In this document: one piece after another, positions 1,888-62,927 of the stretch
Layout: each line of letters opens with the position of its first letter
Numbering within the stretch: the first letter of the stretch is position 1
DNA from: an uncultured bacterium
Lineage (GTDB): Bacteria > Patescibacteriota > JACMRA01
Assembly (NCBI GenBank): GCA_963704645.1
Contig: OY969926.1
Location: 832,001-896,000 of the forward strand
Direction: 5' to 3'
DNA length: 64,000 nucleotides
Made by a program: the position numbers and the translations under genes
The notes under the pieces: generated by a model
Database searches by the model: none
What the model saw: only the letters and a program-made list of their open reading frames with translations
Told to the model about the DNA's origin: nothing

Positions 1888-2012
1888 AAATATTTTTAAG
1901 TAACAAATTAGTCTTCTAAAAATTGACTAGCTTGGCAAGGGGAATAGTGTAACACCCAAAATTTAACCAAAGAAAATTCCCTTGGGTTTAAGCAAGGGGC
2001 TGATATGTTTTA

Positions 2013-2543
2013 CTATTTGGTAAAAGTATCTGGTATATAAGGATCGGGTGGAAATTCCTTTAAATTATAGTTTGGTTCTTGCCGTAATGTACGAAAAATA
2101 GATAATTGTTGTCCAATTGATAAATCGTAGAAATAAATATACCTTCCTTCCTTAATTCTTTCTTTTACCTGCTTTGGTGTAAGTTTAATGTCTCTGGTAA
2201 CCCTGTTGGTGTTGGGTGCTACGCATAGTTCTGAACTTGCAACAGCTTGTGGAGCTGTAGAGCAAACTCTTATTAGGGTGTCTCCTTCAATTCCGCAAAT
2301 TACTCCTGGTGGTTGTTCCTGATTGCACAAAGGATCTTTTTTGGTGGCACCTTTCAAAAGTATAACCTCCTCTCTTTCGTTGAACGAACTTTCCGATCTG
2401 TTCTGTCTAACAAGTCCAGGCTCTTCTTTTACTTTTACGCTGGTTCTTGTTGTTACACGCTGCACCGGGCTGCACATTGCAATTAACCCAAAAACTAATA
2501 CAATAATGATAATATTTCCAAGACAGCCGAATAATCCTCTCAT
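2013..2543 (-). CDS. Orphan exported/lipoprotein-like hypothetical protein
   Basis: N-terminal hydrophobic helix ending LIAMC; four further Cys; AGGAGG SD upstream; terminator-like hairpin at ~1975-2000. Confidence 0.6.
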   Translation of the reverse strand: MRGLFGCLGNIIIIVLVFGLIAMCSPVQRVTTRTSVKVKEEPGLVRQNRSESSFNEREEVILLKGATKKDPLCNQEQPPGVICGIEGDTLIRVCSTAPQAVASSELCVAPNTNRVTRDIKLTPKQVKERIKEGRYIYFYDLSIGQQLSIFRTLRQEPNYNLKEFPPDPYIPDTFTK

Positions 2544-2689
2544 TGCTTCCTCCTTTTTGTTACAAAAATTTAACCAAGTTAACTTCTATTTTTTTTGGTA
2601 GAATGGCAAGGTTAAATTAAAAAGTGTTTATTTTAAACTAAATAGCTTGACAAAAAGGCTGTAAAATTCAACATTTGGTAAGTATTGTT

Positions 2690-2765
2690 GCCATCATAGC
2701 TCAGTCGGTAGAGCATTTCCATGGTAAGGAAAAGGTCATCGGTTCGAATCCGATTGATGGCTCCA
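2690..2765 (+). tRNA. tRNA-Thr(GGT)
   Basis: Cloverleaf GCCATCA..TGATGGC, anticodon arm TTTCC-ATGGTAA-GGAAA, TTCGAAT T-loop, encoded CCA; TTGACA upstream. Confidence 0.97.
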
Positions 2766-2775
2766 GAAATTTTAA

Positions 2776-2803
2776 GTTTCCCCCTCAAGGGAGATTTTTT
2801 ATT
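2776..2803 (+). terminator. Intrinsic terminator after tRNA-Thr
   Basis: TTTCCC-CTCAA-GGGAGA hairpin followed by a T tract. Confidence 0.65.
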
Positions 2804-2940
2804 TGGTAGAATGTTGTTATGTGTTTAATATTCGTGGTTTGCAAACACACCAAATCTATCCCTATGGTAGAGGGAGTTATTTTTAAATTCTGAAATGAGA
2901 TTTGGTGATGGGAAAATAAATTGTACTCATTTTAAATAAA

Positions 2941-2963
2941 TGGCGAGACGGGCCCGCCTCTAC
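2941..2963 (-). repeat. GTAG-type REP
   Basis: rc GTAGAGGCGGG-CCCGT-CTCGCCA; near-identical to 60028-60050. Confidence 0.75.
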
Positions 2964-2996
2964 AATAATTAAATTGTTACAACTGTGGCTCGTGAA

Positions 2997-3799: not shown

Positions 3800-4090
3800 T
3801 TAATCGATATAAACAATATCAGAAACTTTAGGAAAGTCTAATTCTATGCGGTTTCTTTGACTTAAAGCTAATTGACACATATTAGCCAAACTACTAAGAT
3901 CCTCATTTTCTAGGTGGATGCAGAAAGTAAAGGCACAGTCTAATAAAACCTCCCAAGAATGATCTGTTCTCCCTGATAATCTAAAACTACTTACTGCAAC
4001 TTGACCTTCAAGAAGTGAAAACAGTGATAGTATGTTTCTAGAGACTTCTTCAGGTACTTGATACAAAACAGCCGAATCATTTTTATTCAT
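3800..4090 (-). CDS. Orphan hypothetical protein (96 aa)
   Basis: ORF with own TTGACT box (~4148-4153) and terminator hairpin/T tract at ~3752-3780. Confidence 0.55.
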   Translation of the reverse strand: MNKNDSAVLYQVPEEVSRNILSLFSLLEGQVAVSSFRLSGRTDHSWEVLLDCAFTFCIHLENEDLSSLANMCQLALSQRNRIELDFPKVSDIVYID

Positions 4091-4264
4091 ATTTTGATCT
4101 TAAATGTACTCAAAGAATAATCTCTGTATGGCACACAAAATATGTAAAGTCAATTACTGTTGAATCTTCTCAATCTGGTCTTTCAGTCTTTTGTTTTAAT
4201 TTAGGATCTTGCTTTTTTCTTAATTATGTGATTATACTTAGTACGTAGAAGCATAGGGTAGGTT

Positions 4265-4600
4265 ATGGACTTATATTGTCTTCGGAAAAATGTAGATAAA
4301 TCTATAAGAGTAGATATTACTGGAAAATTGGTAGATACTTCATCTGATTCGGTGCTTAAGGATAGTGAGACATATTTAACCTCAACTTTCGCACTAAAAG
4401 TAAAACAGGTGACAGATTTTCCAGACCACAGTCTTGTCACTGTAGTTCCAGATACTATTACTCTTTACAGAGCTGATAGTCATGAGCGACTGGATGTTGT
4501 TGTAACTGATATAATTGTCCGTAATAAAATTAGTTATCTACTAGCTAGTACTAGTGACGGTGCTGAAAAAATGCTTCAACTGAAAGGTGGCGAGGTATAA
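4265..4600 (+). CDS. Orphan hypothetical protein (111 aa, beta-rich)
   Basis: ORF with purine-rich SD-like AGGGTAGG and terminator at 4630-4656. Confidence 0.55.
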   Translation: MDLYCLRKNVDKSIRVDITGKLVDTSSDSVLKDSETYLTSTFALKVKQVTDFPDHSLVTVVPDTITLYRADSHERLDVVVTDIIVRNKISYLLASTSDGAEKMLQLKGGEV

Positions 4601-4629
4601 ACCTAAAGTTACAAATCTAATAGTAAATT

Positions 4630-4656
4630 AAGCTTTCCAAACAGAAGGCTTTTTTC
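4630..4656 (+). terminator. Intrinsic terminator
   Basis: AAGCTTTC-CAAACA-GAAGGCTT plus T tract. Confidence 0.65.
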
Positions 4657-4803
4657 TTGCTAAAAAATATGACACTAAATTTTGTTGTACTAACCTATTT
4701 TCTCAAAATAAACTTGTTTAAAAAGTATAGAGTTCACCAATAAAATAATTTTAATGTGTCTACAAAACTGTCACATGAGCTAAACTTTTTAAGGTAAAAT
4801 CTC

Positions 4804-6615
4804 CTAAACTTTCTCAATCTGGTCTTTAAGCTCTAACCAAACAATTTCGGCATCGGCTAATTTGGCTTTTGTTACATCGTCGTCTTGGCCTTCATCAATT
4901 AGGTTTTGTAAATTCTGCATTTTTCTTTCGGCTTTTTGAAGTTCTTTGTTTAGTTCAAACAATTTTTTTCTAGCTTCCTTGCTTAAATTTCCTCCTGAAC
5001 TAGCTGACCCACTTCCATTTTCAGAAGATCCTGAAACATTTGTACCATTTCCTCCTGCCCCAGATATATCAAATTTAGCTGTGGAAATTTCTTCCTTTTT
5101 GTTATTGCTATTTTCTAAATCGGCGGCTTGTTCTAAATTCCAAACGTAATCTTGGTAACTTCCCAAAATTCTTTTCAGCCCTCCGTCTTTAATTTCAATT
5201 ATTTCGTTGGCAATTAAACTTACAAAAGTACGGTTGTGGCTAATTACGAAAACAGTTCCATTAAATGCTCCAAGAGCCGCACCAAGTGCTTCTACAGTTT
5301 CAAAATCAAGGTGGTTAGTAGGTTCGTCTAACAAATAAACGTCGGCTTTTCCTAAAAATATTCCTGCTAAACAAAGTCTGGCTTTTTCACCTCCACTTAA
5401 AACCGAAACTGTTTTGTCATAATCGTTTCTGGTAAATAAGAAGTTGCCTAAAATACGGTAAACTTCGTCCATACTTGCATTTCCTTCGGCGGCTCTGGAG
5501 GCAAAAGCAAAAATTGTATCTTCTGGCTTTAATCCTTCGCTTACATGTTGGTTATAAAAACCTAGTTTCAAACCCTTCTTCCAAGCAACTTGGCCTTTAA
5601 CAGCAGGAATTTCACCCATAATCGTTTTCATGAAAGTACTTTTTCCTTGTCCGTTGTCTCCTAAAATAGCAGTTTTTTTGCCACGCTCTACACGTAAATC
5701 TATATTTTTAACAATGGTTTTATTTGGGTACCCAATATCCATTTGTAAGCATTCCATCGCGTCTCCTTGCTTATTTTCTACAGCAGGAATATGCATTTTT
5801 ACTGTGCTAAAAGCGGTAGCAATTCCAATCTTTTTAGTGTCCAATTTATCTATTAAACGCATTTTAGACTGGGCCGATTTGGCTTTGCTGGCTTTAGCAC
5901 CAAATTTATCAACGAAAGTTTGTAGCTGCTTTTGCTTCTTCTCAATGTTTTCATTTACACTTTTAGCCAGTTCTTCTTGTTCCTGTTTAAATTCTAAATA
6001 TTCTTCCAAGCCTTCGTTATGTAAAAATAGTTGCCCGTTACCAACATCCAACGTAGAGTTACAAGTTTTCTTAATAAATTCACGGTCGTGGGTTATAACC
6101 ATTACTGTTCCTTTAAAGTCTAGCAAAAACTTTTCCAGCAAAATTAAAGTTGATAAATCTAAATAGTTAGTAGGCTCGTCCAACAAAAGTAAATTAGGTT
6201 CAAAAAGCAGGGTAGCTGTTAATTTAACTCTCATCTGAAAACCTCCAGACAAACTAGTTACTTTCATTTCCAATTTCTCATTTTTTAATTGGAATTTGCT
6301 AGCTACTTTGGCACATTCCCAGCTCGGTTTTTTGGTGTAACGCTCTAAAAACTCAATTACAGTTTCACCTTCTAAAAATGGATCATTTTGTTCAATATAG
6401 CCCAAACGCATGTAAGGAAAATGTTGAATTTCACCTAAATCTGGTTCGTCCAAACCCATAATCATTTTAAAAAGGGTGGTTTTACCAGCTCCATTTCTTC
6501 CCACAACTCCAATTTTCTGGTTTTCACTAACAACTAGGTTGGCTTCGGTGAATATTTTCTTTACTCCAAAAGATTTGGAAAGGTCTTTAATTTGCAACAA
6601 CGGACGATTAGCCAT
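4804..6615 (-). CDS. ABC-F family ATPase (ribosome-associated, Uup/YheS-like)
   Basis: Two ABC cassettes (GRNGAGKT, LSGG, LLDEPTNYLD; GDNGQGKS, LSGGE, LDEPTNHLD), no TM segments, C-terminal coiled coil. Confidence 0.93.
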   Translation of the reverse strand: MANRPLLQIKDLSKSFGVKKIFTEANLVVSENQKIGVVGRNGAGKTTLFKMIMGLDEPDLGEIQHFPYMRLGYIEQNDPFLEGETVIEFLERYTKKPSWECAKVASKFQLKNEKLEMKVTSLSGGFQMRVKLTATLLFEPNLLLLDEPTNYLDLSTLILLEKFLLDFKGTVMVITHDREFIKKTCNSTLDVGNGQLFLHNEGLEEYLEFKQEQEELAKSVNENIEKKQKQLQTFVDKFGAKASKAKSAQSKMRLIDKLDTKKIGIATAFSTVKMHIPAVENKQGDAMECLQMDIGYPNKTIVKNIDLRVERGKKTAILGDNGQGKSTFMKTIMGEIPAVKGQVAWKKGLKLGFYNQHVSEGLKPEDTIFAFASRAAEGNASMDEVYRILGNFLFTRNDYDKTVSVLSGGEKARLCLAGIFLGKADVYLLDEPTNHLDFETVEALGAALGAFNGTVFVISHNRTFVSLIANEIIEIKDGGLKRILGSYQDYVWNLEQAADLENSNNKKEEISTAKFDISGAGGNGTNVSGSSENGSGSASSGGNLSKEARKKLFELNKELQKAERKMQNLQNLIDEGQDDDVTKAKLADAEIVWLELKDQIEKV

Positions 6616-6774: not shown

Positions 6775-7020
6775 CTAATTAAAAAGTCGCCTTAGATTAT
6801 AAGCCATAAGAGGCCAGCCGTTTAAAACTGACTGATGAATTTCATCTACCTTTTTTTTAAAATGTAGTGGCATTTCTTCGTAACTATATCTCTCATAATC
6901 CAGAGGGTCATTTTGGATTATATGCCAGTCCAACTTTCCTTCATCGTAAAACAAAGCATACTCATAAACATTGTCTTTTTTTGTTATAGTTTCCCCATTT
7001 ATGGTAACTAAATAAAGCAT
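6775..7020 (-). CDS. Orphan hypothetical protein (81 aa; start moved to ATG 7020)
   Basis: GGAG SD before ATG 7020; the ORF-track TTG at 7083 is part of a TTGCCA -35 box; terminator GAGGC..GCCTC at ~6689-6708. Confidence 0.5.
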   Translation of the reverse strand: MLYLVTINGETITKKDNVYEYALFYDEGKLDWHIIQNDPLDYERYSYEEMPLHFKKKVDEIHQSVLNGWPLMAYNLRRLFN

Positions 7021-7288: not shown

Positions 7289-7687
7289 ATGCCTACTAAT
7301 TATGGCGAAGGAAGCTCGTTGTTTATGTATTTTCAAGATTACACTACTAATCAACTTGGTTTCTCAATAGGTTTATCTACCAATTTAGTATCTCCCGCAG
7401 CTTACGCAAGTTTGTATTCAGACGAAACACTTCAAATTTGTAACAACGAAATGGAGGATTTGGCTTTTCACACCAGAATTATTTTGGGCAGGGAAGCAAT
7501 TTTCTTTAGATTTGTTGAGGGCAGCTATGCTACAATTGGAGACATGATGAGTAAAGTGATACAGCTGAATAATTTCTTAAAAATGCAAGATGTGTCGGTG
7601 GTTCATCAGTTTTTTGCTGAAGAGAAATTTGTACAACAACTTATGCAATATTTTCCAAGCAGTTTTGAATTTCATTTTCAGTTTTGA
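7289..7687 (+). CDS. Orphan hypothetical protein (132 aa)
   Basis: ORF track; no recognisable motif; TGA stop. Confidence 0.5.
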   Translation: MPTNYGEGSSLFMYFQDYTTNQLGFSIGLSTNLVSPAAYASLYSDETLQICNNEMEDLAFHTRIILGREAIFFRFVEGSYATIGDMMSKVIQLNNFLKMQDVSVVHQFFAEEKFVQQLMQYFPSSFEFHFQF

Positions 7688-7796: not shown

Positions 7797-7862
7797 ATGG
7801 CAGTAGGTTTTTTAATTTTGCTATGTATGGCTGGGCTTATTCTAGTTGGATTTATAGGGTAG
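7797..7862 (+). CDS. Small hydrophobic peptide MAVGFLILLCMAGLILVGFIG (21 aa)
   Basis: GAGGAG SD shortly upstream, TTGACA at 7732, terminator at 7906-7928; absent from the ORF track. Confidence 0.55.
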   Translation: MAVGFLILLCMAGLILVGFIG

Positions 7863-7905
7863 CCGTTTATTGATTAGCTCGATTTGTTGTATAAACAAAT
7901 ATTAT

Positions 7906-7928
7906 AAGAGTCTTATAGACTCTTTTTT
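7906..7928 (+). terminator. Intrinsic terminator
   Basis: AAGAGTC-TTATA-GACTCTT plus T tract. Confidence 0.7.
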
Positions 7929-8058
7929 CTTTGGGCGAAATTCAAACTAAATTATGTTTTAAACAGTAATGTTAGCAGTATAATTTTTTGAAGCTATTGC
8001 CTAAAACCAAAAAAAATGTTGAGTTGAAACAGTTAGTAGATTTATTACAGGAGGAATT

Positions 8059-8394
8059 ATGAATTGGGGTCAATTGTTAAACAATAGTATATCTTGGCTA
8101 GAAGAACTTTTTCTCAAGCAATTGGGTTGGAGTTGTTTTATAGTTGGTTTTACTGTTCTGATTGTATGTTTGGCCTTTTCTAACATACCAAAAAATACAG
8201 CGATGATTTTAAGGCCTGCAATTTTTGTAGGGGCCGTTGCCATATGCTACGAATGGGGTCTTAAGTATATAGGCTATGCAACAAGATTTCCAGTGATGTT
8301 TTTAATAGTATTTTTAGCACTGCTAAATGTTTATCAAAGCATATTCACTAATTATCCAAAAAAAACTCAACAAGTTGGCGGAGGCAAAGGTTAA
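8059..8394 (+). CDS. Orphan 3-TM membrane protein
   Basis: Three hydrophobic helices; AGGAGG SD; terminator at 8410-8434. Confidence 0.65.
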   Translation: MNWGQLLNNSISWLEELFLKQLGWSCFIVGFTVLIVCLAFSNIPKNTAMILRPAIFVGAVAICYEWGLKYIGYATRFPVMFLIVFLALLNVYQSIFTNYPKKTQQVGGGKG

Positions 8395-8409
8395 AAAACT
8401 GTGAATTTT

Positions 8410-8434
8410 GGCTATTTTATATAGCCTTTTTTTT
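8410..8434 (+). terminator. Intrinsic terminator
   Basis: GGCTAT-TTTAT-ATAGCC plus T8. Confidence 0.7.
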
Positions 8435-19653: not shown

Positions 19654-19682
19654 GGGTTAATCATTGAAATTCACAACACTAT

Positions 19683-22721: not shown

Positions 22722-23057
22722 GTGGCAAGATACTCCAGCAGGTCAGTTTTTTCAGGCACACCAATAACTCAGTCCATTCCGTCTCAGGAGATTGATTTAA
22801 TTTTGAACCCCATTCGGCCTCCAGGAGTAGAGGTTAACGATGAAAAGCATTGTTGGACTGCATATCCTCAAAAAGAATTAACGGTTCATTCTGTTTGTCT
22901 CTCCTCTGTGATAGTAATGTATGCTTGGTATGACATGTACAAGTGTCTGGATGTCAATTCTAAAATTTTGCTGGGTATTCATTATTTTGATAAAGAAAGC
23001 GATAGGTGTAAGTATATAAAGAAAGTCTGGGCTGCAGTGATAGCAATTATAGACTAA
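22722..23057 (+). CDS. Orphan hypothetical protein (111 aa)
   Basis: ORF followed by terminator AAGGCTTCCA-ATCG-TGGAGGTCTT (23066-23097). Confidence 0.45.
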   Translation: MARYSSRSVFSGTPITQSIPSQEIDLILNPIRPPGVEVNDEKHCWTAYPQKELTVHSVCLSSVIVMYAWYDMYKCLDVNSKILLGIHYFDKESDRCKYIKKVWAAVIAIID

Positions 23058-23130
23058 ACATTGTTAAGGCTTCCAATCGTGGAGGTCTTAATTTTTTGCC
23101 AAAACCACACTCCTTATTTTAAATTAAATT

Positions 23131-24087
23131 ATGCATATCCCCAAAAAGAAGTTTGGACAGAATTTTTTGGTAAACAAAGAAGCTAAAAGTAAATTGGCGG
23201 TGGCGGTGAAAAGCTTTGTAGAAATAACTAAGGCCGAAACTATTTTGGAAATTGGGCCAGGACTTGGTGATTTAACCGAAATTTCCTGTAAAATATTACC
23301 TGTAATCGCTGTAGAAATAGACTTTGATATAGTGGAAAAAATGGAAGTTAAATTTCAAAATAATTTCAGTGTGGTGAATCAGTCTAAACTATATTTAGGT
23401 GATATTTACCAATGGCAAAAGCAAATTTTAGAGGGAATAGTCCACGACATTAACCAATTAGATTATGGTTTAGAGTCTGAAGTATCCTCCCAGCAAAATG
23501 TGGAGACTGTACGATCTGAGTTGTTACAAGGTAATCCTCCTAAAAAAACAATAGTTCCTGCAGAGTTTAAAAGTTTTTATTTGCAAGACAACTGGGTTTT
23601 AATTTCCAACTTACCTTATAATTTGGGTTCACGTATTTTGGTTGATATGGCCATTCTTCGTCCAAACTCTTCCTTTTTGGTTATTTTGCAAGAAGAAGTG
23701 GTAGATAAACTGGTCAATTTAGATAAGCATTTTACATTTTTTGGGGCTTGGTTGAATATTTTTTATTCTTTTAAAAAAGAGGTTATTTTACCCAGGCATT
23801 ACTTTAATCCTCAGCCTAATGTCACATCGGCTTTAGTTTCTGCTGTGTCCAAACCATTGCCATCATATTTGGAATCTGTTCAGCAAAGATTATTGGCTTT
23901 AAGCACATTAAAAAAGCTATTTGCCTTCCCTAGTAAAACCATTTATAATAATTTAAGGCAGATGAACTACAAAGACCATGAAATTCATCTTTTACTAAAT
24001 TCTGCCAACATCCAAATTCAAGCAAGACTAAATAAAGATAATTATTTGCCTCTTTTGCACAAAATCTTGGGCGTTGACAAAGTATAG
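23131..24087 (+). CDS. rsmA: 16S rRNA adenine dimethyltransferase (KsgA) with internal insertion
   Basis: KKFGQNFL, LEIGPGLG, VEID, ISNLPY, FNPQPNVTS. Confidence 0.92.
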   Translation: MHIPKKKFGQNFLVNKEAKSKLAVAVKSFVEITKAETILEIGPGLGDLTEISCKILPVIAVEIDFDIVEKMEVKFQNNFSVVNQSKLYLGDIYQWQKQILEGIVHDINQLDYGLESEVSSQQNVETVRSELLQGNPPKKTIVPAEFKSFYLQDNWVLISNLPYNLGSRILVDMAILRPNSSFLVILQEEVVDKLVNLDKHFTFFGAWLNIFYSFKKEVILPRHYFNPQPNVTSALVSAVSKPLPSYLESVQQRLLALSTLKKLFAFPSKTIYNNLRQMNYKDHEIHLLLNSANIQIQARLNKDNYLPLLHKILGVDKV

Positions 24088-42584: not shown

Positions 42585-42929
42585 ATGTGTAAAGTAAATA
42601 GAAATATTGGCACGGACGGCTCAATTTTAGCAGAACTAGAAACTGGTTCAGAAAATCCTATCTTAGAGTTACATTTTCCTCAATCTCTAGGTCAATCTCG
42701 CACCGATGTAATTTCAGTACTTTCTCAGCTGTCAGATTTTTTTCAATTTTCAGTTGAATATTTTATTCGTGAAGGTTTGGCGGTTGCAGACGATGACAGT
42801 TCCAATGTTTATGATCTTTCTTCTGCTAGAATAGCCATCACTCCAACACCAGCTGGACGACGTTTATTGAACTGTATTGAAAGTTTTTTTTCAACTTTAG
42901 AATCTGCTTTTATTCCAGTTACAGTTTAG
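42585..42929 (+). CDS. Orphan hypothetical protein
   Basis: TTGACA at 42499, AAGGAG SD before ATG 42585, terminator at ~42954-42985. Confidence 0.5.
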   Translation: MCKVNRNIGTDGSILAELETGSENPILELHFPQSLGQSRTDVISVLSQLSDFFQFSVEYFIREGLAVADDDSSNVYDLSSARIAITPTPAGRRLLNCIESFFSTLESAFIPVTV

Positions 42930-43075
42930 ATGGTAAAACTTTTTCCAAATTGAAAGGCTAGGTTCTATAATCTAGTCTTTTTTCTTTGGCTGAAAAGTTT
43001 TCGAAGTAGGGAATCTATAGTAAGGAGATACTTTGTACTTCAGGTTGGCTCGATAATTTTTTGCTACTCCACACC

Positions 43076-43868: not shown

Positions 43869-44252
43869 ATGCTTCAATTGCATTATGATGATGACAGATT
43901 GATAGGAAGTCTGGAAGGTGGGAACAAAATTTCTGCTGTTCATGACCTTGAAAATGATAACATTTTGATTCAAATTGATTTAGTTGATGTTCATAGCATT
44001 TCAGATTTTGAAGTATTTATTGATCAGGTCATCTTCAATATAGAACATTTTAAAACCGTTGCCTATGAATTTAGCAATGGTGTAAATGGACAAATTATTG
44101 TTGATTCCGATGGTGAAGTAAATAGACTTAGCCTTGCGTTCTCAGCTCAAATTACTGATACCGAGTATGCCAACCATTTGGACAAAGCTATTTATATCTC
44201 AAATGTTCTGGCAGGATTATTTGGCAATTTAGTTCAACAAGCTTATGCTTAA
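43869..44252 (+). CDS. Orphan acidic hypothetical protein
   Basis: TTGACA at 43796, GAGGGG SD, terminator GTGGCAC-CAA-GTGCCAC plus T tract (44260-44287). Confidence 0.55.
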   Translation: MLQLHYDDDRLIGSLEGGNKISAVHDLENDNILIQIDLVDVHSISDFEVFIDQVIFNIEHFKTVAYEFSNGVNGQIIVDSDGEVNRLSLAFSAQITDTEYANHLDKAIYISNVLAGLFGNLVQQAYA

Positions 44253-44320
44253 ACCTCAGGTGGCACCAAGTGCCACTTGTTTTTTTGACAAATTTTTGGG
44301 CAGGTGGTTCAAATAAGTAA

Positions 44321-47879: not shown

Positions 47880-47977
47880 GTGCGATTTATTGTAAGCGTA
47901 GAAATTACCATCCTAATTTTGAATTAAGCAAAAAAATAACTACTTCAGCGGGGTTGCGTAAAGTAGTTAAAATTAGT

Positions 47978-48478
47978 TTAAGCGTTACACCGTTTCATTG
48001 TGTCTTCCATTTCTTGCTCTAATAATTCATAGAGTTCAGAATCATCCCAAGGAACTTCCAAAGCTGCTTGTTGATCACACCAATCGTCGATGTGTGTTCT
48101 GTCACAATAACCTGCAGTTATATCATCAAATTCGAGTATCCACATTAGGTTGAACTTACCTTGGGAATTTGGTGTTCTTACATCAGCAGGGTAATTAATT
48201 ACTAATGGAAAGACATATTGCTCCAAAAAAGGCTTGATCAATATTTTTCTCAAGTCTTGCTCATCTGGAACATTCTCATTCCACTCCCACCAGAACCATT
48301 CATCACAAGCTAGATATACTTCGGTTAGAATCGCTCCATTACTGGCAATTTTTTCTAATTCGTTCCTTAAACATTCTGCTAACCTGTCTTCTGTTGCTAA
48401 AGAAAGACACAATCTAACTTTGTTATTTTCCAAAAAAGTTAGAGCATTTTCTTCAGAAAATTCAGAGTTATAACTCAC
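47978..48478 (-). CDS. Orphan acidic hypothetical protein
   Basis: AGGAG SD before GTG, TTGACC at ~48546-48551, terminator at ~47930-47970. Confidence 0.55.
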   Translation of the reverse strand: MSYNSEFSEENALTFLENNKVRLCLSLATEDRLAECLRNELEKIASNGAILTEVYLACDEWFWWEWNENVPDEQDLRKILIKPFLEQYVFPLVINYPADVRTPNSQGKFNLMWILEFDDITAGYCDRTHIDDWCDQQAALEVPWDDSELYELLEQEMEDTMKRCNA

Positions 48479-51329: not shown

Positions 51330-52475
51330 ATGTCATTTCAACGAGATATGGAAGATTTTCTTCTGTATTGTGAACTAACCAAGCAGTATTCTGAAAACAC
51401 TGTGCGTAATTATAGGGCTACTATGGAGCGCTTTGGAAAGTTTTTGGAGGTTAGGCAAATAGCTAGAACTAACCAAATTGATATTGATATTGTGAACCAA
51501 TACCGTGTTCATTTAAACAAGCAAGAAAGCATTAGGGGAGATAAAATTAGTTTGAAAACTCAGGCTTATCAAATTGTAGTGTTAAGGTCCTTCTTAAAAT
51601 TTTTAATTAAAAATGGGGCTTTGGTTCTTTCTCCAGATAGATTGGAATTGCCTAAAACTAGAATGCGAAAAATTGAATTTTTAAATGAAACTGAGGTTCA
51701 AAAGCTAATTCATGTAATTATTCAAGATTCGGCTAAAGTTGCAGATGTTCAAAAGAAACGTAATCAGGCCATAGTTTTAATTTTGTTTGGTTCAGGTTTG
51801 CGTTTGTCTGAATTGCTAAGTTTGAAAAAAGCCCAAATTCCATTGTGGAAAGGAGAGGTTGAATTGGAGGAAGAAAATGCTAGTGTTGATAGTAACCCTC
51901 AAGAAAATGGAAGGAGCGTAGAAATTGTGAATGGTGATTTAAATCAAACTCTAAGTTTAGAGTCTGGACTTCCACAAAGTTCAACACTAGAAAAAGATAT
52001 TCCTATACAAAATACACCTAGAAATGAAACTACAAGCCCAGAAATGAGCGACAATCAGCTATTAATTCAAGGTAAAGGTGGAAAAGTCCGCTCGGCTTTT
52101 TTGGCTCCGGCTTCATTAGAAGCAATTCATGAGTATTTAAAAATTCGTGGGGAAGACGAAAACCCTTGGCTGTTCATTTCTTTTAGTAAAAACAGAACTA
52201 AAGATTTAAAAAAACAAAAACCATTAACTCCAAGAATGGTTCAGTTAATGTTACAAAGTTATGCCAACAGATTGGGTATTTATAAGCACGTTACGCCACA
52301 CACACTTCGTCATAGTTTTGCCACAAAGGTTTTAACTGAAGGAGGAGATTTGCGTTCGGTGCAGACTTTGCTTGGCCATTCTAATATTTCTACCACTCAA
52401 ATTTATACACATGTTAGTGACTGGCAAATTAGAGATTTACATTCCAAAGTGTTTGGCAAGAAAGAGGGGAAATAA
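51330..52475 (+). CDS. XerC/D-type tyrosine recombinase with a ~65-aa insertion
   Basis: SAM-like N-terminus (YSENTVRNY), GLRLSEL, GKGGK, TPHTLRHSFAT, LLGH, TTQIYTHV. Confidence 0.93.
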   Translation: MSFQRDMEDFLLYCELTKQYSENTVRNYRATMERFGKFLEVRQIARTNQIDIDIVNQYRVHLNKQESIRGDKISLKTQAYQIVVLRSFLKFLIKNGALVLSPDRLELPKTRMRKIEFLNETEVQKLIHVIIQDSAKVADVQKKRNQAIVLILFGSGLRLSELLSLKKAQIPLWKGEVELEEENASVDSNPQENGRSVEIVNGDLNQTLSLESGLPQSSTLEKDIPIQNTPRNETTSPEMSDNQLLIQGKGGKVRSAFLAPASLEAIHEYLKIRGEDENPWLFISFSKNRTKDLKKQKPLTPRMVQLMLQSYANRLGIYKHVTPHTLRHSFATKVLTEGGDLRSVQTLLGHSNISTTQIYTHVSDWQIRDLHSKVFGKKEGK

Positions 52476-54080: not shown

Positions 54081-54096
54081 AAATAAAAAAACCAAT

Positions 54097-54122
54097 GTAG
54101 GGGCGATGTTTAGCATCGCCTT
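54097..54122 (+). repeat. GTAG-type REP after pepA
   Basis: GTAG-GGGCGATG-TTTAG-CATCGCCT; degenerate relative at 45541-45565 (minus strand). Confidence 0.75.
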
Positions 54123-59372: not shown

Positions 59373-59852
59373 GTGGAGATTTTCTTTGTTCTTTTTAACG
59401 CTTTTATTGATGAGGTCAGGAATCACCCTATTTCATTTTTGGCTTGGCTACTTGTTTTCCTATCAGTAATTGTTAGAAATTACAAAGTTAGAAAGGCACT
59501 AGCTCTTATTGGTCTTGGTCTGATTGCACTTACGGTTGTGCTTGTTATTAGCGGGCAAATGTCTTGGTACTACCAAGTCAGGCTTGTTAATTACTTCACA
59601 TTTATGAACGCTTTAGTATATGGCTTTATCCGTTTTGTGTTAGCGTTATGCAAAATGGCAATCACTTGGGAGCTTGCTAATGAGAGTGCACCACTTATTT
59701 GCCTTGTCGTATGCACATACTCAGTTTTTACAAACTATGCATTGCCAATAGATGTAACGCTTGTAAATTGGGATATAGCCAAGTTTTATTTAGGCGGATG
59801 GGTGCTATTGATATTTGGTCATTTTAGCAATTTATTTCTAAACAACAAATAA
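59373..59852 (+). CDS. Orphan polytopic membrane protein
   Basis: GAGG SD before GTG, TTGACT at 59298, terminator at ~59858-59898. Confidence 0.55.
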   Translation: MEIFFVLFNAFIDEVRNHPISFLAWLLVFLSVIVRNYKVRKALALIGLGLIALTVVLVISGQMSWYYQVRLVNYFTFMNALVYGFIRFVLALCKMAITWELANESAPLICLVVCTYSVFTNYALPIDVTLVNWDIAKFYLGGWVLLIFGHFSNLFLNNK

Positions 59853-60027
59853 ACTTAAAAAGAGTTCTTGCAAAATTTTAAACCAAGAGCTCTTTTTCTT
59901 TGGGCGAAAATTTTTGGGAGTGTGGTTCTATGTGTTTAAAATAATGTAATTGCATAATGGTTTCTTACTGCTTTTGACCATATGGTCTTATTAAAATATA
60001 CTTTGGTTATTAACGACCAATAAATTA

Positions 60028-60050
60028 TGGCGAGACAGGCTCGCCTCTAC
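60028..60050 (-). repeat. GTAG-type REP
   Basis: rc GTAGAGGCGAG-CCTGT-CTCGCCA. Confidence 0.75.
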
Positions 60051-60063
60051 ACAAATTTAATAT

Positions 60064-60378
60064 ATGTTTCAATCAATTTTAAAATACTATAAACAAAATG
60101 ATCAGGTTATTTTTGTAATGCTTGGGCAATTGGCCGTGTTTGGTTTAATAATTGCAGCTATAATCTATGCAGTTTTGCAAATTTCAACTTGGCGTGGTTT
60201 TCAGTTTGATCCGTTTTTAACCATTTCTTTGGTGTATATAGTTTACTTGCAAAATAAGGTTTTAAAATCTATTCAATTTCAAAATCAGCAAAATATTCAA
60301 ATTCTTTCCAAGTTAGTAGAAAAACAAACGGCCGAGAAAGCTTCTACAAAATTGGCGGTGAAGAAAGCTGTGAAGTAG
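60064..60378 (+). CDS. Small 2-TM hypothetical protein
   Basis: Two hydrophobic helices and a Lys-rich tail. Confidence 0.6.
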   Translation: MFQSILKYYKQNDQVIFVMLGQLAVFGLIIAAIIYAVLQISTWRGFQFDPFLTISLVYIVYLQNKVLKSIQFQNQQNIQILSKLVEKQTAEKASTKLAVKKAVK

Positions 60379-60438
60379 TTTACTATATAGTTTAAGTTTT
60401 TTGTGTAAGAAAATAGCAGCTTCAGAGCTGCTTGAGTT

Positions 60439-60678
60439 TTATTTTTGAAGGTACAAACCAACAGCGAAAGCTATAATTGGTCTTCCGTAAGTTGCTAAAT
60501 CTGTGTCAGAATAAAGACAGGTCATTATATCCTCGGCTGCCAGATTTTTGGATGAGGCTATGGCATCAATTTTGCCATAAAGCTTTTCCGATAAAAATCT
60601 ACCATTATGTGGGTCTTTGAATTGATTATACTTCTCACCCAGGTTTTCAATAAAGTCATTAATATACATATTACCCAT
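60439..60678 (-). CDS. Orphan hypothetical protein (79 aa)
   Basis: GGAG SD upstream; terminator AGCAGCT..AGCTGCT at ~60410-60432. Confidence 0.45.
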   Translation of the reverse strand: MGNMYINDFIENLGEKYNQFKDPHNGRFLSEKLYGKIDAIASSKNLAAEDIMTCLYSDTDLATYGRPIIAFAVGLYLQK

Positions 60679-60726
60679 TCTCCAAAAACGAGAGTTCTTT
60701 ACATTAAAAGCACAAACTATAGTTTT

Positions 60727-62394
60727 CTACAAGTCCTTTTCTTGAATAAACTTCCTTGAACCGTAACCTTGATATAAAATGACTAAGTTTTTCTTTCCTT
60801 TCAGGTTTTTAAATAACTCTAATTTTCGCTTAATTTCCTTATTTGGAAGGGCGGAAACTATAATTTTTTCTTTTTCTAAGCCTAATTTTAAAAGCTCGTT
60901 TTGAACCATTTTAGAGTAATTTGGTCCTACTAAAACTATGAAATCTATGTTTGCCTCGCCTAGGCTTTTGGCTACTAATTGATGAGTGTTAACAGACTGG
61001 ATTCCAAGTTCGGCAATATCGTCTAAAAATATAATTTTCTTACCATCAAAATTCTTCAATAGTTCAATAGCATTTAAAACTCCGTCTAAGTTGGCGTTAT
61101 AGGAATCGTTAATTTTATAGCCGTACTCTGTTACTTCAACATTCAAAGTTCCTTCTGATGACGGCAAATTTAACAAGCTTTTACTTAAATTTTCTAATTT
61201 AAAACCGTATGCGGTGCAACAGGCCATGCTAGCTAAAATATTTTGAATACTACCTTTGCCAATTAAATTAGTTCTAAAATTGTACATCTGACCTTCCCAG
61301 AAAACGTTAAATTCTGTTCCTTCCAAATCGCTACTAATAATTTCTGCACGAATGTCTGCATCCTCTGAAAAACCGTATTTAATAAGTTTTACATCTTTTG
61401 GAACTACAATTTCTTGACACCAAGGACTGTCCCAATTAATTATCGCTAAGTTTTCAGGCTTCAAAAACTGTAAAGATTCACTTTCGGCTGAAATAATTTG
61501 TTCTTTTCCGCCAAACAAACTGTAATGTTGGTTATTTAAACCCGTAATAATACTAGTATTTGGAAAGCTGAACTTACATTGATCAATTCCATCACCTTGT
61601 TTATAGGCTCCAATTTCGCTAATAAAAATGTCTGTTTTAGAATCTAAACTTAAAATTTTTCTGGCTACAGCTAACGTGGAATTATGGTTTTTAAAAGTTT
61701 TTTCAACATTGAATTTGGTTGCAAGTAAGCTGGCCAAAATTTCTTTAGTAGAGCTTTTACCGTAACTGCCAGAAATGCCAACCACTTTTAAATTAAGCAA
61801 AGTTAGTCGGTGATGTTTGGCTTTAAGTGTAATTCTGTATTTTAAGAAGGTATCTAGTGGCCATAGAAGTAAAATTGAAAATCCAATAATTAAAGGTTGT
61901 ATTAAAGACAACATCAACAAACTAATTGGAATTGTGGAAATTAAAAATGAACAATTCGGACAGCTAAATATTTTATCTAAAAAAGAATACAACACTAAGT
62001 TGGCTACAATTGCAGTTACCGACAGCCCTAAAATTTTAAAAGAAAATTTAGGAAGCAAGGCTCGCTTTTGAATAATTTGCCTTGTAAAAATGGCTATCTC
62101 TATAAGCGAAGTTAGAATAATGAATAAATAGACAAACGGAGAATAAAGCCTTGAAAAAACATAATCTAAAATTAATGCAAACAGTGCCAAAATTCTAAAT
62201 GTAGTAAACCAATCTAAAAATACCCGGGGAAACTTTGGAGAACTTACTAAATCTAGGAATTTGTCTAAACGGTATTCTTTCCACTGCCAAATGTATAAAA
62301 AGTAAATAAGCTTTTTTATAAGTACTAAAACCGTTATTAGAATTGAAAAATAAAAAGCTAAAACAGTAAGTGCAATAAGTTCAAAAACCGACAT
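60727..62394 (-). CDS. MurF-like Mur ligase with N-terminal TM region
   Basis: VVGISGSYGKSSTKE, EIGAY, QH, INDSYNAN, ELG. Confidence 0.85.
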   Translation of the reverse strand: MSVFELIALTVLAFYFSILITVLVLIKKLIYFLYIWQWKEYRLDKFLDLVSSPKFPRVFLDWFTTFRILALFALILDYVFSRLYSPFVYLFIILTSLIEIAIFTRQIIQKRALLPKFSFKILGLSVTAIVANLVLYSFLDKIFSCPNCSFLISTIPISLLMLSLIQPLIIGFSILLLWPLDTFLKYRITLKAKHHRLTLLNLKVVGISGSYGKSSTKEILASLLATKFNVEKTFKNHNSTLAVARKILSLDSKTDIFISEIGAYKQGDGIDQCKFSFPNTSIITGLNNQHYSLFGGKEQIISAESESLQFLKPENLAIINWDSPWCQEIVVPKDVKLIKYGFSEDADIRAEIISSDLEGTEFNVFWEGQMYNFRTNLIGKGSIQNILASMACCTAYGFKLENLSKSLLNLPSSEGTLNVEVTEYGYKINDSYNANLDGVLNAIELLKNFDGKKIIFLDDIAELGIQSVNTHQLVAKSLGEANIDFIVLVGPNYSKMVQNELLKLGLEKEKIIVSALPNKEIKRKLELFKNLKGKKNLVILYQGYGSRKFIQEKDL

Positions 62395-62522
62395 TATATA
62401 TAAATTTGTTGGGAAGAGCGGGTTTGGTCAAGGTAAGAAATGTGAAGTTTAAATTTAACTTGATAAATGTTGAAAAAAGTGATTATAGATAAGTCGGCAT
62501 TTAGCATAGCGAGTATTAAAAA

Positions 62523-62804
62523 ATGAGACAATTCCAAACTTTGACTGGATCAGTTTATAAAATTCTAAAAGGCGACCCAGACGATCAAGTTCAAAAAGGC
62601 GATGAAAATCCTTTGCCTTTTGTGGGTGGGTGGAACGGTAGTATTGAAAGCTTTAAAGCTAACACCACCCCTCTGCGTATTTCTTCAGAATTTGTCTCAC
62701 CCGAGAGAATTGCTGAAGGAGAAGAACCAAAATGCGTCTTAATAGGAGGTGACTTGTTTGGCAGGATTTTCATTCGAGAGGTTCATATGTGGTCAATGAA
62801 TTGA
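62523..62804 (+). CDS. Orphan hypothetical protein (93 aa)
   Basis: ORF with terminator-like hairpin at 62811-62852; TGA stop. Confidence 0.4.
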   Translation: MRQFQTLTGSVYKILKGDPDDQVQKGDENPLPFVGGWNGSIESFKANTTPLRISSEFVSPERIAEGEEPKCVLIGGDLFGRIFIREVHMWSMN

Positions 62805-62927
62805 ACTAAAATTACCCAAGTAGCTTTCCTTAAAGTGAACGGGTGATTTTTTATTGGACTAAAGCTTTTGTAAGTTTGTTAAAAACCAAAATATGGTTAA
62901 TTCTTTGTAATAACAATAGAAAAATAT

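What the first reader, a model, noticed from the sequence alone, without database searches (positions are those of the whole stretch)
1975..62852. Dispersed self-contained orphan 'solo cassettes' (promoter + often SD + ORF + terminator) interleaved with SD-less housekeeping genes
Seen: small unrelated ORFs at 2013, 3800, 4265, 6775, 7797, 8059, 22722, 42585, 43869, 47978, 59373, 60439 and 62523 are each followed by an intrinsic-terminator hairpin. Most have longer leaders with clear SD motifs (AGGAGG at 2543 and 8059; GAGGAG at 7797; AAGGAG at 42585; AGGAG at 48478; GGAG at 7020) that core genes lack. Several dock directly against a core gene's -35 box: the terminator T tract runs into the -35 of rsmA (23096) and trhO (44285) and lies ~10 nt from that of rsmI (3747). 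Two terminators share a tail CTCTTTTT(T)CTTTGGGCGAAA (7920, 59890; variant at 42976). No integrase or attC is adjacent. Inference: either an undescribed single-gene cassette acquisition/shuffling system, or a second translation class (SD-led, possibly host- or phage-derived, or intended for host ribosomes). This is the best candidate for a new system in the window.
Basis: partly seen in the sequence, partly recalled or inferred. Interest (0 to 1): 0.7.

Follow-up and report, generated by a model that had tools for sequence, protein, structure and literature searches.

The report
Small self-contained orphan genes, leaderless core
In this tiny bacterial genome the conserved genes appear to start translation at the very first base of their messages and have no ribosome-binding site or terminator, while about a hundred small strain-specific genes of unknown function carry the classical signals, and at least a few were visibly inserted between older genes.

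Summary
13 of 14 small orphan ORFs in the window are followed by a hairpin plus T tract, against 3 of 48 other ORFs. Across the genome, small ORFs with no hit in the congener G001 have terminators in 115 of 266 cases and an SD core in 47 of 266. Large conserved ORFs have 77 of 510 and 16 of 510. The contrast repeats in G001.

The "SD-less housekeeping genes" look leaderless. TTGAC peaks exactly 35 nt before their start codons, with a weak -10 at -12..-7 and T(-1)A(+1). Orphans have their TTGAC 61-100 nt upstream, so they have leaders.

The orphans are unrelated ORFans with host-like composition. One of them, 4265-4600, lies in a 644-nt insertion flanked by a 17-nt duplication of the ABC-F gene's 3' end. 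G001 has the uninterrupted site. Two similar footprints exist elsewhere.

I found no integrase, attC-like site, terminal inverted repeats or shared junction motif. My reading is young inserted accessory genes in a leaderless genome, not a dedicated cassette system. No expression data were available.

The parts
2013..2543 (-). Orphan ORF, 176 aa, with an N-terminal hydrophobic segment. AAGGAGG lies 5 nt before the ATG, TTGCCA at -66, and the terminator hairpin at 1998-1979.
   Evidence: No Pfam, PHROG or PADLOC hit. Found only in its own genome among 31 genomes. Only itself among 5.8e9 proteins.
1958..2586 (.). Direct repeat 1958-1979 / 2565-2586 (13 nt exact, 22 nt at 82%). It brackets exactly the leader + ORF + terminator of the 2013-2543 unit. 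Suggestive only.
   Evidence: Flanking repeats of 13 nt or more occur at 8 of 169 orphan runs against 1 of 169 in a reversed-flank control.
3800..4090 (-). Small ORF, 96 aa, genus-restricted. No SD, TTGACT at -63, no terminator by my scan.
   Evidence: 43% identical and syntenic in G001 directly after ABC-F. Not found next to ABC-F in 10 other genera with downstream sequence held.
4184..4810 (+). Inserted segment carrying orphan ORF 4265-4600 (111 aa) and its terminator at 4630-4651.
   Evidence: G001 has 65-88 nt at this junction. The ORF has a 34-36% identical paralog elsewhere in the genome. That paralog has a 78% identical relative in a metagenome. AF2 model is all-beta, pLDDT 69, with no clear fold match.
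4167..4183 (.). Left copy of the 17-nt target duplication. With the bases to 4154 it is the stranded original 3' end of the ABC-F gene (reads KDQIEKIQQ stop on the minus strand), followed directly by the TTGACT promoter of 3800-4090.
   Evidence: G001 has one copy (KDQIEKLQG stop, then TTGACT). 7 of the 10 other genera with a complete end also have a hydrophobic residue, mostly Leu, after the conserved acidic motif.
4811..4827 (.). Right copy of the 17-nt duplication. It is now the real 3' end of ABC-F (4804-6615, minus strand), which ends KDQIEKV stop.
6775..7020 (-). Orphan ORF, about 81 aa from the ATG near 7020. GGAG lies 9 nt upstream. Terminator at 6708-6688.
   Evidence: No hit in G001.
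7289..7687 (+). Orphan ORF, 132 aa, no SD.
7797..7924 (+). 21-aa hydrophobic mini-ORF (7797-7862) behind GAGGAG, then the terminator at 7906-7924 with the tail motif at 7920-7940.
8059..8426 (+). Small membrane-protein ORF, 111 aa, behind AGGAGG. Terminator at 8410-8426.
   Evidence: 31% identical hit in G001.
22722..23092 (+). Doubtful ORF: 111 aa, GTG start, no SD, low codon score. A strong hairpin at 23063-23092 is followed by a T tract that runs into the rsmA -35 box.
23096..23133 (+). Example of a leaderless-type promoter. TTGCCA at 23096-23101 lies 35 nt before the rsmA ATG at 23131.
42585..42981 (+). Orphan ORF, 114 aa from the ATG at 42585. AAGGAG lies 10 nt upstream. Terminator at about 42952-42981 with the variant tail.
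43869..44290 (+). Orphan ORF, 127 aa, with GAGG at -13 and TTGACA at -73. The terminator lies at about 44257-44279, and its T tract runs into the TTGACA (44285-44290) of leaderless trhO (ATG at 44321).
   Evidence: Only itself plus one weak hit (E 2.7e-5) among 1.84e9 representatives.
47938..48478 (-). Orphan ORF, 166 aa, GTG start behind AGGAG, TTGACC at -73. Terminator just below 47978.
   Evidence: Only itself among 5.8e9 proteins. AF2 single-sequence model pLDDT 35.
59373..59910 (+). Small membrane-protein ORF, 159 aa, with GAGGT and TTGACT at -75. Terminator at about 59860-59894 with the tail motif at 59890.
   Evidence: 62% identical and syntenic in G001.
60064..60678 (.). Convergent pair of small ORFs: 60064-60378 (+, 104 aa, 62% identical in G001) and 60439-60678 (-, 79 aa, no hit). 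They share one two-way hairpin at about 60416-60433.
62523..62852 (+). Orphan ORF, 93 aa, no SD, TTGATA at -63. Terminator at about 62812-62846.
51330..52475 (+). The only tyrosine recombinase gene found in the genome. It is not adjacent to any orphan and has a 75% identical match in G001.

Best explanation
The 'solo cassettes' are real. They are the minority class of transcription unit in a 1.27-Mb, Rho-less, Omp85-less genome that uses two expression grammars.

Conserved genes are leaderless. A sigma-70-type -35 box (TTGACA) sits 35-38 nt before the start codon, with a weak -10 at -12..-7. Transcription would therefore start at the A of the ATG. These genes have no SD, and terminators occur after them at background frequency.

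Roughly a hundred small genes (about 50-200 aa) restricted to this strain or genus are ordinary leadered monocistronic units. Their promoter lies 60-100 nt upstream. They have a 25-65 nt leader, an SD in about a third of cases (usable because the 16S anti-SD is intact), and a strong intrinsic terminator.

They are unrelated ORFans of unknown function that turn over quickly. At least some reached their present sites by insertion of DNA between or into older genes.

Inferred, not shown: a newcomer cannot easily acquire a promoter placed exactly at its start codon, so it needs a leader and an SD. In a genome without Rho, only newcomers that end their own transcript are tolerated, because read-through would bury the 5'-terminal AUG of the next leaderless gene and run over its promoter. 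Insertion uses general recombination or repair at short homologies, not a dedicated cassette machine.
For: Leaderless core genes:
- TTGAC starts exactly at -35 in 46 of 706 conserved ORFs and at -36..-38 in 43 more, against 0-12 at other positions.
- In the 57 ORFs with TTGAC at -35, A at -11 is 77% and T at -7 is 65%.
- T at -1 is 68% in 396 ORFs.
- An SD core occurs in 16 of 510 large conserved ORFs, against 6% at random positions.
- Operon-internal ORFs have 4%.
- The anti-SD is present.
- In the window, 15 non-orphan ORFs (rsmA, trhO, gatB and ABC-F among them) have a TTGACA-like hexamer at -35..-38.

Orphans as a distinct class:
- Terminators follow 115 of 266 small no-hit ORFs against 77 of 510 large conserved ones. 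SD cores occur in 47 of 266 against 16 of 510. Both signals together occur in 34 of 266 against 5 of 510.
- Controls for the terminator scan give 18% on the antisense strand and 6% inside genes.
- Among the 115 orphans with a terminator, TTGAC lies at -38..-34 in 1.7% and at -100..-61 in 18%. For large conserved ORFs the figures are 14% and 6.5%.
- G001 repeats the pattern. Small no-hit ORFs there (n = 114) have SD in 25%, a terminator in 56% and TTGAC near -35 in 2.6%. Large conserved ORFs (n = 450) have 3.8%, 8.7% and 16%.
- A same-family genome, G007, also shows the TTGAC peak at -38/-37 and T at -1 in 68%.

Genome features: no Rho found in this closed genome.

ORFan status.

Turnover: of 73 junctions whose flanks are neighbours in G001, 37 are empty there and roughly 10-15 hold an unrelated ORF of similar size (my reading of the list).

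Insertion footprints: a 17-nt duplication around 4265-4600, with the stranded original gene end. About 28 nt in three copies around two orphans at genome 910 kb. A 30-40 nt terminator copy at 1071 kb.
Against: - No transcript or protein data exist. No sequencing run was listed, so leaderless starts, leaders and terminator function are all inferred from sequence.
- SD is present in only 18-30% of orphans. 6 of 14 in the window lack one, so 'SD-led' describes a tendency.
- GC and GC3 of orphans equal those of the core (0.327 against 0.337; 0.262 against 0.250). This gives no sign of foreign origin.
- Only 3 of 37 empty-site junctions show a duplicated target.
- 4 of 14 window orphans are conserved in G001 at 31-62% identity, two or three of them syntenic. 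Part of the class is therefore resident and fast-evolving rather than newly inserted.
- The polarity of most presence/absence differences is unknown.
- 'No hit in G001' also catches true core genes missing from that 86%-complete assembly, such as rsmA and dnaA.
- Some ORFs under 100 aa may not be genes.
- The tolerance argument about read-through is untested.
Confidence: 0.6

Rival explanations
1. The orphans are old resident genes that evolve too fast to be recognised. The differences from G001 are mostly losses in that lineage. Their SDs and terminators reflect high or separately regulated expression of small proteins, not youth or import.
For: - 4 of 14 window orphans have weak G001 homologs (31-62% identity, where neighbouring core genes mostly show 51-90%), two or three of them in the same place.
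- Roughly 10-15 of 73 junctions hold an unrelated ORF of similar size at the same position in G001 (my reading of the list).
- Composition is identical to the core.
- The HU-like gene, a conserved type of highly expressed small gene, also has an SD-like leader and a tailed terminator.
- The paralog of 4265-4600 is 78% identical to a metagenome protein, which suggests purifying selection.
Against: - The insertion at 4184-4810 is derived. The stranded ABC-F end matches the family-typical C-terminus.
- Two further duplicated-target junctions exist.
- 37 junctions are empty in G001 but only 5 of 43 reciprocal junctions are empty in G000.
- Three orphans have no relative at all in 1.8-5.8 billion proteins.
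Confidence: 0.2
2. A dedicated single-gene cassette system is at work. The 3' hairpins with conserved tails are recombination sites (attC-like) used by a recombinase acting in trans, or units from leader to terminator are copied and pasted.
For: - Almost every unit ends in a hairpin.
- Sub-families of hairpins share tails of the type T-run + TTGCCCAAAA or TTGGGCGAAA, at about 13-25 sites, several where no downstream gene could use them as a promoter.
- The terminator of 4265-4600 is better conserved with its paralog's (34 of 40 nt) than the proteins are (34-36%).
- Insertions are flanked by direct repeats.
- At 910 kb, two units sit in tandem, each bounded by a copy of the same 28 nt.
- The 13-nt repeat around 2013-2543 brackets exactly leader to terminator.
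Against: - The hairpins are followed by T tracts, as terminators are.
- The tail also follows the HU-like gene.
- The duplicated sequences differ in length (17, about 28, 30-40 nt) and content (coding end, promoter, terminator), with no common motif.
- The 644-nt insertion has no terminal inverted repeats and is not repeated elsewhere in the genome.
- No reverse transcriptase was found.
- The one tyrosine recombinase has a 75%-identical match in G001 and lies away from the orphans.
- Units are dispersed, in both orientations, each with its own promoter.
Confidence: 0.07
3. Much of the class is an annotation artefact. The ORFs are chance ORFs lying in small-RNA genes or long untranslated regions, whose terminators are then credited to them.
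For: - 22722-23057 has a GTG start, no SD and a codon score below my cut-off.
- By my own estimate from base composition, several dozen chance ORFs of about 80 codons are expected in the non-coding tenth of this 33% GC genome.
- The 151 of 266 small no-hit ORFs without a terminator have SD at background (8.6%).
- AF2 gave pLDDT 35 for 47978-48478.
Against: - By the same estimate, only about a dozen chance ORFs of 100 codons or more are expected, and far below one of 166-176 codons.
- SD plus start codon is in frame in 18% of these ORFs, against 2-9% in the other two frames.
- One family has a paralog and a 78% identical relative and an all-beta model at pLDDT 69.
- The size-matched 100-179 aa comparison still differs.
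- Rfam finds only four tRNAs in the window.
Confidence: 0.08

Closest known systems
Bacterial genomes with frequent leaderless transcription (GeneMarkS-2 'group C': most Actinobacteria, Deinococcus-Thermus)
   Same: The promoter sits at a fixed short distance from the start codon of first genes in operons, and there are two kinds of gene start in one genome. I read passages of PMC6028130. They say the Pribnow box lies about 10 nt from the start and that 25-50% of transcripts in group C are leaderless.
   Different: - Here the sharp signal is the -35 box, and the -10 is weak.
- Operon-internal and other conserved genes do not use SD either (2-7%), whereas the paper describes SD sites for the remaining genes.
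- SD and terminators are concentrated in small lineage-specific genes.
- The lineage is a small-genome, Omp85-less one, not an actinobacterium.
Phage 'morons'
   Same: Single genes with their own promoter and terminator, added between older genes, spread horizontally, mostly of unknown function. I saw only the start of the abstract of PMC3594210 in the search listing. The anatomy with promoter and terminator is otherwise recalled.
   Different: - The neighbours here are housekeeping genes of the chromosome, not a prophage.
- 0 of 10 orphans hit a PHROG.
- No relative was found in viral contigs for the one family tried.
- Base composition is not deviant.
Integron gene cassettes
   Same: Single-gene units ending in an imperfect palindrome, with turnover between relatives.
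   Different: Integron features are recalled, not tested against a model: cassettes are promoterless, stacked in one orientation at attI next to intI, and bounded by attC sites with conserved cores. Here the units are dispersed, lie in both orientations and have their own promoters. Their hairpins are followed by T tracts and share no common core. No integron-type integrase is nearby.
Bacterial ORFans gained by horizontal transfer
   Same: Taxonomically restricted genes without homologs, patchy between close genomes. The abstract of PMC13012023 (read in the outline) concludes that most E. coli ORFans were recently acquired horizontally and that a smaller fraction arose from resident sequence.
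   Different: As far as I read, that work does not tie ORFans to a different set of expression signals. Here the ORFans differ from the core in leader, SD and terminator, and some show long target duplications.
Integrative elements inserted into the 3' end of a gene with a replacement end (attL/attR direct repeats)
   Same: The 4184-4810 insertion sits in the 3' end of ABC-F. It is flanked by a 17-nt direct repeat, leaves the gene intact with a new short end, and strands the old end. The general pattern of such elements is recalled, not tested.
   Different: The insert is only 644 nt and carries one 111-aa gene and no integrase. The repeat is not shared with the other footprints.

Membership tests
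Integron cassette array | Integron integrase (intI) next to the cassettes | tested here: not met
   The Pfam Phage_integrase model finds a single gene in the whole genome (window 51330-52475). It has a 75%-identical match in G001 and is not adjacent to any orphan. It was not tested for intI-specific features.
Integron cassette array | Promoterless cassettes stacked in one orientation | tested here: not met
   The orphans are dispersed over the genome (counts per 100 kb) and lie on both strands. Several in the window have a TTGACA-like box 63-90 nt upstream.
Integron cassette array | attC site with conserved core at each cassette end | tested here: inconclusive
   No attC model was available. 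All-against-all comparison of 254 predicted terminators gives only small families, the largest with 11 members. The hairpins are followed by T tracts.
Phage moron | Independent unit: promoter + gene + terminator | tested here: met
   Sequence signals only. No transcript data.
Phage moron | Located inside a phage or prophage genome | tested here: not met
0 of 10 orphans hit PHROGs.
Leaderless-type bacterial genome (GeneMarkS-2 group C) | Promoter at a fixed distance from the start codons of first genes in operons | tested here: met
   TTGAC peak at -35 (46 of 706 ORFs, plus 43 at -36..-38). A at -11 in 77% and T at -7 in 65% of that subset. T at -1 in 68%. Sequence inference only.
Leaderless-type bacterial genome (GeneMarkS-2 group C) | SD sites before the remaining genes | tested here: not met
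   Operon-internal ORFs have an SD core in 4.2% of 213. SD is enriched only in small non-conserved ORFs.
IS element / MITE / transposon | Terminal inverted repeats, a transposase, multiple copies, target duplication of fixed length | tested here: not met
   Tested for the 4167-4830 insertion only. It has no inverted repeats at its ends and no other copy in the genome beyond a 25-40 nt terminator match. The three footprints have duplications of 17, about 28 and 30-40 nt.
Retro-copied gene | A reverse transcriptase in the genome | tested here: not met
   The RVT_1 model finds no match in this closed genome. The control rang in 3 of 14 genomes.

The most novel reading that the evidence does not exclude
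The hairpin-plus-tail elements are more than terminators. They would be the handles of a so far undescribed way of moving single, self-terminating genes. One version is recombination at hairpin or short-homology sites by a host enzyme acting in trans. Another is copying of whole transcription units from leader to terminator. Either would make this streamlined, leaderless genome a recipient of a steady flow of insulated one-gene modules. The tandem occupation of one 28-nt site at 910 kb, the repeat that brackets 2013-2543 from leader to terminator, and terminators that are better conserved than the proteins they follow are the hints.
Probability: 0.07. Interest if true: 0.85.

Novelty: new variant of a known kind. 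Interest (0 to 1): 0.52.

Why it matters
- Gene age and expression signals. If the sequence inference is right, this is a clear natural case in which gene age and expression grammar go together. Old genes of a streamlined, Rho-less genome would be leaderless, without SD and without terminators. Newcomers would carry the textbook signals.
- Gene calling. Start-site and small-gene prediction in such lineages needs two models.
- Testable idea. Only insulated, self-terminating units can be added next to leaderless genes.
- ORFan origin. The filled and empty sites with 17-40 nt duplications give rare direct footprints of how ORFans enter a small genome.
- Literature. Two searches found no paper that describes this split for a small-genome lineage. 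That is only as strong as those two searches.

Tried and rejected
- Function. Pfam, PHROGs and PADLOC gave no orphan hit above a curated cut-off or E 0.01. The ESM Atlas gave no usable hit for 2013-2543. AF2 on 47978-48478 alone gave pLDDT 35, which is uninformative. The pLDDT-69 model of 4265-4600 had no Foldseek match at E <= 0.001 and a best VIA-align Z of 4.9, below the tool's stated background.
- Weak match. The similarity of 43869-44252 to an SWM/Ig-like repeat protein (E 2.7e-5) is too weak to use.
- Relatives. The search for related loci found nothing for 59373-59852 in genome contigs. It found nothing for the 4265 family in metagenome or viral contigs.
- Expression. The look-up of sequencing runs listed no run and no RNA holder.
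- Standard promoter scan. The sigma-70 scan was not enriched over shuffles (75 found against 70.9 expected). A strict TATAAT-type test for leaderless promoters was weak (13% against 5%), because the -10 is degenerate here.
- Coding test. The six-frame codon test was uninformative, because open frames win by construction.
- Tail motif. I rejected it as a universal cassette boundary. It occurs at only about 13-25 sites and also follows the HU-like gene.
- D3 palindrome. It is a separate REP-like repeat.
- Reciprocal search. Looking for G001-specific insertions with duplicated targets gave 0 of 5.
- Taxonomy. The nearest named record (L062) is titled as a Bdellovibrionales MAG. The genome has no Omp85, and all 11 same-phylum genomes listed are 0.7-1.2 Mb. 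I therefore do not rely on that label. 'CPR-like' is my inference.
Supplements of papers were not consulted. Supplemental tables of PMC6028130 may list group assignments for related lineages.

Full report
**Setting**

The window is bases 832001-896000 of a closed 1,272,640-bp genome with about 33% GC. It holds four tRNAs and no other Rfam match.

The named neighbours are ordinary housekeeping genes: zwf, rsmI, an ABC-F ATPase, gpmI, a Ctp protease, a phosphomannomutase, rsmA, dnaA, signal peptidase I and gatB.

The genome gave no match to Rho, Omp85 or reverse transcriptase. It has a shortened S1 and one tyrosine recombinase.

All 11 same-phylum genomes listed are 0.7-1.2 Mb. I infer a small-genome, single-membrane lineage. 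The nearest named record, L062, is titled as a Bdellovibrionales MAG, and I do not rely on that label.

**The observation**

I called ORFs myself: longest open frame, codon log-odds, greedy removal of overlaps. This gave 1148 ORFs covering 86% of the genome.

In the window, 14 small ORFs count as orphans. None has a Pfam, PHROG or PADLOC family.

- Terminators. 13 of the 14 are followed by a hairpin plus T tract in my scan. Only 3 of the 48 other ORFs are. The built-in scan sees the same hairpins in the first 20 kb.
- SD motifs. Six orphans have none.
- '7797'. This is a 21-aa hydrophobic mini-ORF behind GAGGAG.
- T tracts into -35 boxes. The T tracts after 22722 and 43869 do run into the -35 boxes of rsmA and trhO.
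- Shared tail. It occurs exactly twice in the genome, both times in the window.

**The 'SD-less' genes**

The 16S rRNA ends with the canonical anti-SD. Even so, only 8% of all ORFs have a 4-nt SD core at -20..-4, against 6% at random positions. Only 16 of 510 large conserved ORFs have one. Operon-internal ORFs have 4%.

Upstream of ORFs with a hit in the congener, TTGAC starts exactly at -35 in 46 of 706 and at -36..-38 in 43 more. Other positions have 0-12. Where TTGAC is at -35 (57 ORFs), A at -11 is 77% and T at -7 is 65%. That is a weak -10 hexamer at -12..-7. T precedes the start codon in 68% of 396 ORFs.

A -35 box 35 nt before the ATG, a 17-nt spacer and a -10 ending 7 nt before the ATG place the transcription start on the A of the start codon. 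This is the sequence signature of leaderless mRNAs described for 'group C' genomes (passages of PMC6028130).

It remains inference from sequence.

**The orphans as a class**

I labelled an ORF conserved if tblastn found it in G001, the only same-genus genome. I fetched 888 kb of G001, which is 86% complete. 707 of 1148 ORFs hit.

| Class | Terminator | SD core | Both |
|---|---|---|---|
| Small (<180 aa), no hit | 115 of 266 | 47 of 266 | 34 of 266 |
| Small, conserved | 38 of 196 | 15 of 196 | 9 of 196 |
| Large, no hit | 24 of 175 | 15 of 175 | 8 of 175 |
| Large, conserved | 77 of 510 | 16 of 510 | 5 of 510 |

- Controls for the terminator scan are 18% on the antisense strand and 6% inside genes. 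Conserved genes therefore sit at background.
- Size-matched at 100-179 aa with a downstream gap of at least 40 nt, terminators follow 79 of 135 no-hit ORFs against 26 of 98 conserved ones.
- A start-agnostic test finds an SD 5-mer plus an in-frame start in 18% of small no-hit ORFs, against 4-6% in the other classes and 2-9% out of frame.
- Orphans with a terminator have TTGAC at -38..-34 in 1.7% and at -100..-61 in 18%. Large conserved ORFs have 14% and 6.5%. The orphans therefore have leaders of roughly 25-65 nt.
- The pattern repeats in G001, analysed independently. Small no-hit ORFs (n = 114) show SD in 25%, a terminator in 56% (72% of 88 with a gap) and TTGAC near -35 in 2.6%. Large conserved ORFs (n = 450) show 3.8%, 8.7% and 16%.
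- A same-family genome of another genus, G007 (304 kb sampled), has the TTGAC peak at -38/-37 and T at -1 in 68%. A same-phylum genome, G022 (400 kb sampled), is SD-poor at 16% but has no such peak.

The frequencies differ strongly.

**What the orphans are**

- Relatedness. They are unrelated to each other. Only 4265-4600 has a paralog (34-36% identity).
- Conservation in G001. Four of the 14 have G001 homologs. 3800 is 43% identical and syntenic. 8059 is 31%. 59373 and 60064 are 62% and syntenic. Neighbouring core genes mostly show 51-90%.
- No homologs. 2013-2543 and 47978-48478 match only themselves among 5.8 billion proteins. 43869-44252 matches only itself and one weak repeat-protein hit among 1.84 billion representatives. 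2013-2543 is in none of 30 relatives searched.
- Composition. GC, GC3 and the share with hydrophobic segments equal those of the core.
- The 4265 family looks like a real protein family. The paralog has a 78% identical relative in a metagenome. A three-sequence AF2 model is an eight-strand all-beta fold at pLDDT 69 without a convincing match.
- Doubtful ORFs. 22722-23057 is doubtful as a gene. ORFs under 100 aa are individually uncertain.

**Turnover and insertion**

For 73 runs of no-hit ORFs, both flanking genes are neighbours in G001. In 37 of these the G001 gap is under 330 nt and empty. In roughly 10-15 an unrelated ORF of similar size sits there (my reading of the list). In the reverse direction, only 5 of 43 junctions are empty in this genome.

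Three of the 37 junctions show the empty-site sequence duplicated on both sides of the extra DNA.

The case in the window is clear:
- In G001 the ABC-F gene ends KDQIEKLQG-stop and is followed at once by the TTGACT promoter of the 3800 homolog.
- Here ABC-F ends KDQIEKV-stop at 4804.
- 644 nt further on, at 4183-4154, lies a stranded copy reading KDQIEKIQQ-stop, followed by TTGACT.
- The two copies share 17 identical bases, or 20 nt at 95%.
- 7 of the 10 other genera with a complete ABC-F end also have a hydrophobic residue, mostly Leu, after the conserved acidic motif, as in the stranded copy and in G001. The insertion is therefore derived.

The insert carries one ORF (4265-4600) on the opposite strand with its own terminator. 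It has no inverted ends and is not repeated elsewhere apart from a 25-40 nt terminator match.

The other two footprints are:
- About 28 nt of a promoter region in three copies around two orphans at genome 910 kb.
- A 30-40 nt terminator copy at genome 1071 kb.

Exact flanking repeats of 13 nt or more occur at 8 of 169 orphan runs against 1 of 169 in a control. One is the 13-nt repeat that brackets 2013-2543 from leader to terminator. That case is suggestive only.

**Mechanism**

Shown:
- Two classes of sequence signals exist.
- They are linked to conservation.
- At least three insertions have long target duplications.

Inferred:
- The orphans are transcribed from their own promoters, translated by SD-dependent or other leadered initiation, and terminated at their hairpins.
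- Newcomers need leaders, because a promoter exactly at the start codon is hard to acquire.
- Without Rho, only self-terminating newcomers are tolerated next to leaderless genes.
- Insertion goes through general recombination or repair at short homologies. The duplications vary in length and content, and no dedicated enzyme is evident.

**Against this reading**

- There are no expression data.
- SD is present in only a minority of orphans.
- Composition is host-like.
- Footprints occur at only 3 of 37 junctions.
- Part of the class is conserved in the genus.

**Comparison with known systems**

- The core-gene architecture works like GeneMarkS-2 group C genomes. It differs in that the remaining conserved genes lack SD.
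- The orphans have the anatomy of phage morons but lie among chromosomal housekeeping genes and have no phage matches.
- They are not integron cassettes: no adjacent integrase, no array, and they have their own promoters.
- They fit the general picture of ORFans gained by import (abstract of PMC13012023). The added feature is a distinct expression grammar.

**Verdict**

The 'second translation class' is supported as leadered against leaderless. A dedicated cassette system is not supported but is not excluded (about 7%). I rate this a new variant of known kinds, of moderate interest.

Noticed in passing
window 36931-36970, 43066-43105, 48675-48714: A REP-like palindromic repeat, with a hairpin of two 8-9 nt arms and conserved flanks. 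At least 27 copies lie in one orientation genome-wide, nearly all intergenic. Three copies directly abut the end of a repeated 325-aa gene with no hit in G001. This looks like an IS that targets the hairpin.
   Followed up: partly
window 7920-7940, 59890-59910, 42976-42995; genome 76621, 540882, 650015, 1158783, 1160557 and others: Sub-families of terminators share a tail after the T tract, of the type TTGGGCGAAA or TTGCCCAAAA. There are about 13-25 sites. Several face a convergent gene, so the tail is not a promoter there. One follows an HU-like gene. Function unknown.
   Followed up: partly
window 19659-19708, 19744-19793, 54073-54122: Another repeated hairpin family, with a G-rich stem closing on itself. 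It acts as the terminator-like element after several large conserved genes genome-wide.
   Followed up: no
window 45442-45478, 48590-48626, 60022-60058: A 37-nt GC-rich repeat (family D4). It lies in leaders or intergenic regions and is also seen next to a tail motif at genome 76.6 kb.
   Followed up: no
window 7797-7862: A 21-aa strongly hydrophobic mini-ORF with a strong SD and its own terminator. It could be a small membrane peptide or a type I toxin-like peptide.
   Followed up: no
window 36019-36117: Eight or more tandem copies of a 9-nt unit inside ORF 35736-36770 on the minus strand.
   Followed up: no
window 24219-25646: dnaA lies in the window just after rsmA. Cumulative GC skew rises across nearly the whole window without a turning point.
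   Followed up: no
genome 650055-655677 (outside the window): A run of small minus-strand genes. Four of them (173-214 aa) and a 74-aa ORF have very similar terminators, three or four have SDs, and they surround a 353-aa transposase-like gene. Two share an N-terminal IEGQPV motif. This looks like a fast-diverging tandem family.
   Followed up: partly
whole genome: No match to Rho, Omp85 or reverse transcriptase. S1 is shortened to a 400-aa frame. There is a single tyrosine recombinase.
   Followed up: partly
window 50060-51205 and 51330-52475: Two adjacent 381-aa genes, both conserved in G001. Only the second matches the tyrosine recombinase model.
   Followed up: no
genome-wide junctions: Asymmetry between the congeners. 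37 of 73 junctions are empty in G001, but only 5 of 43 reciprocal junctions are empty in this genome. This fits net gain here or net loss there.
   Followed up: partly
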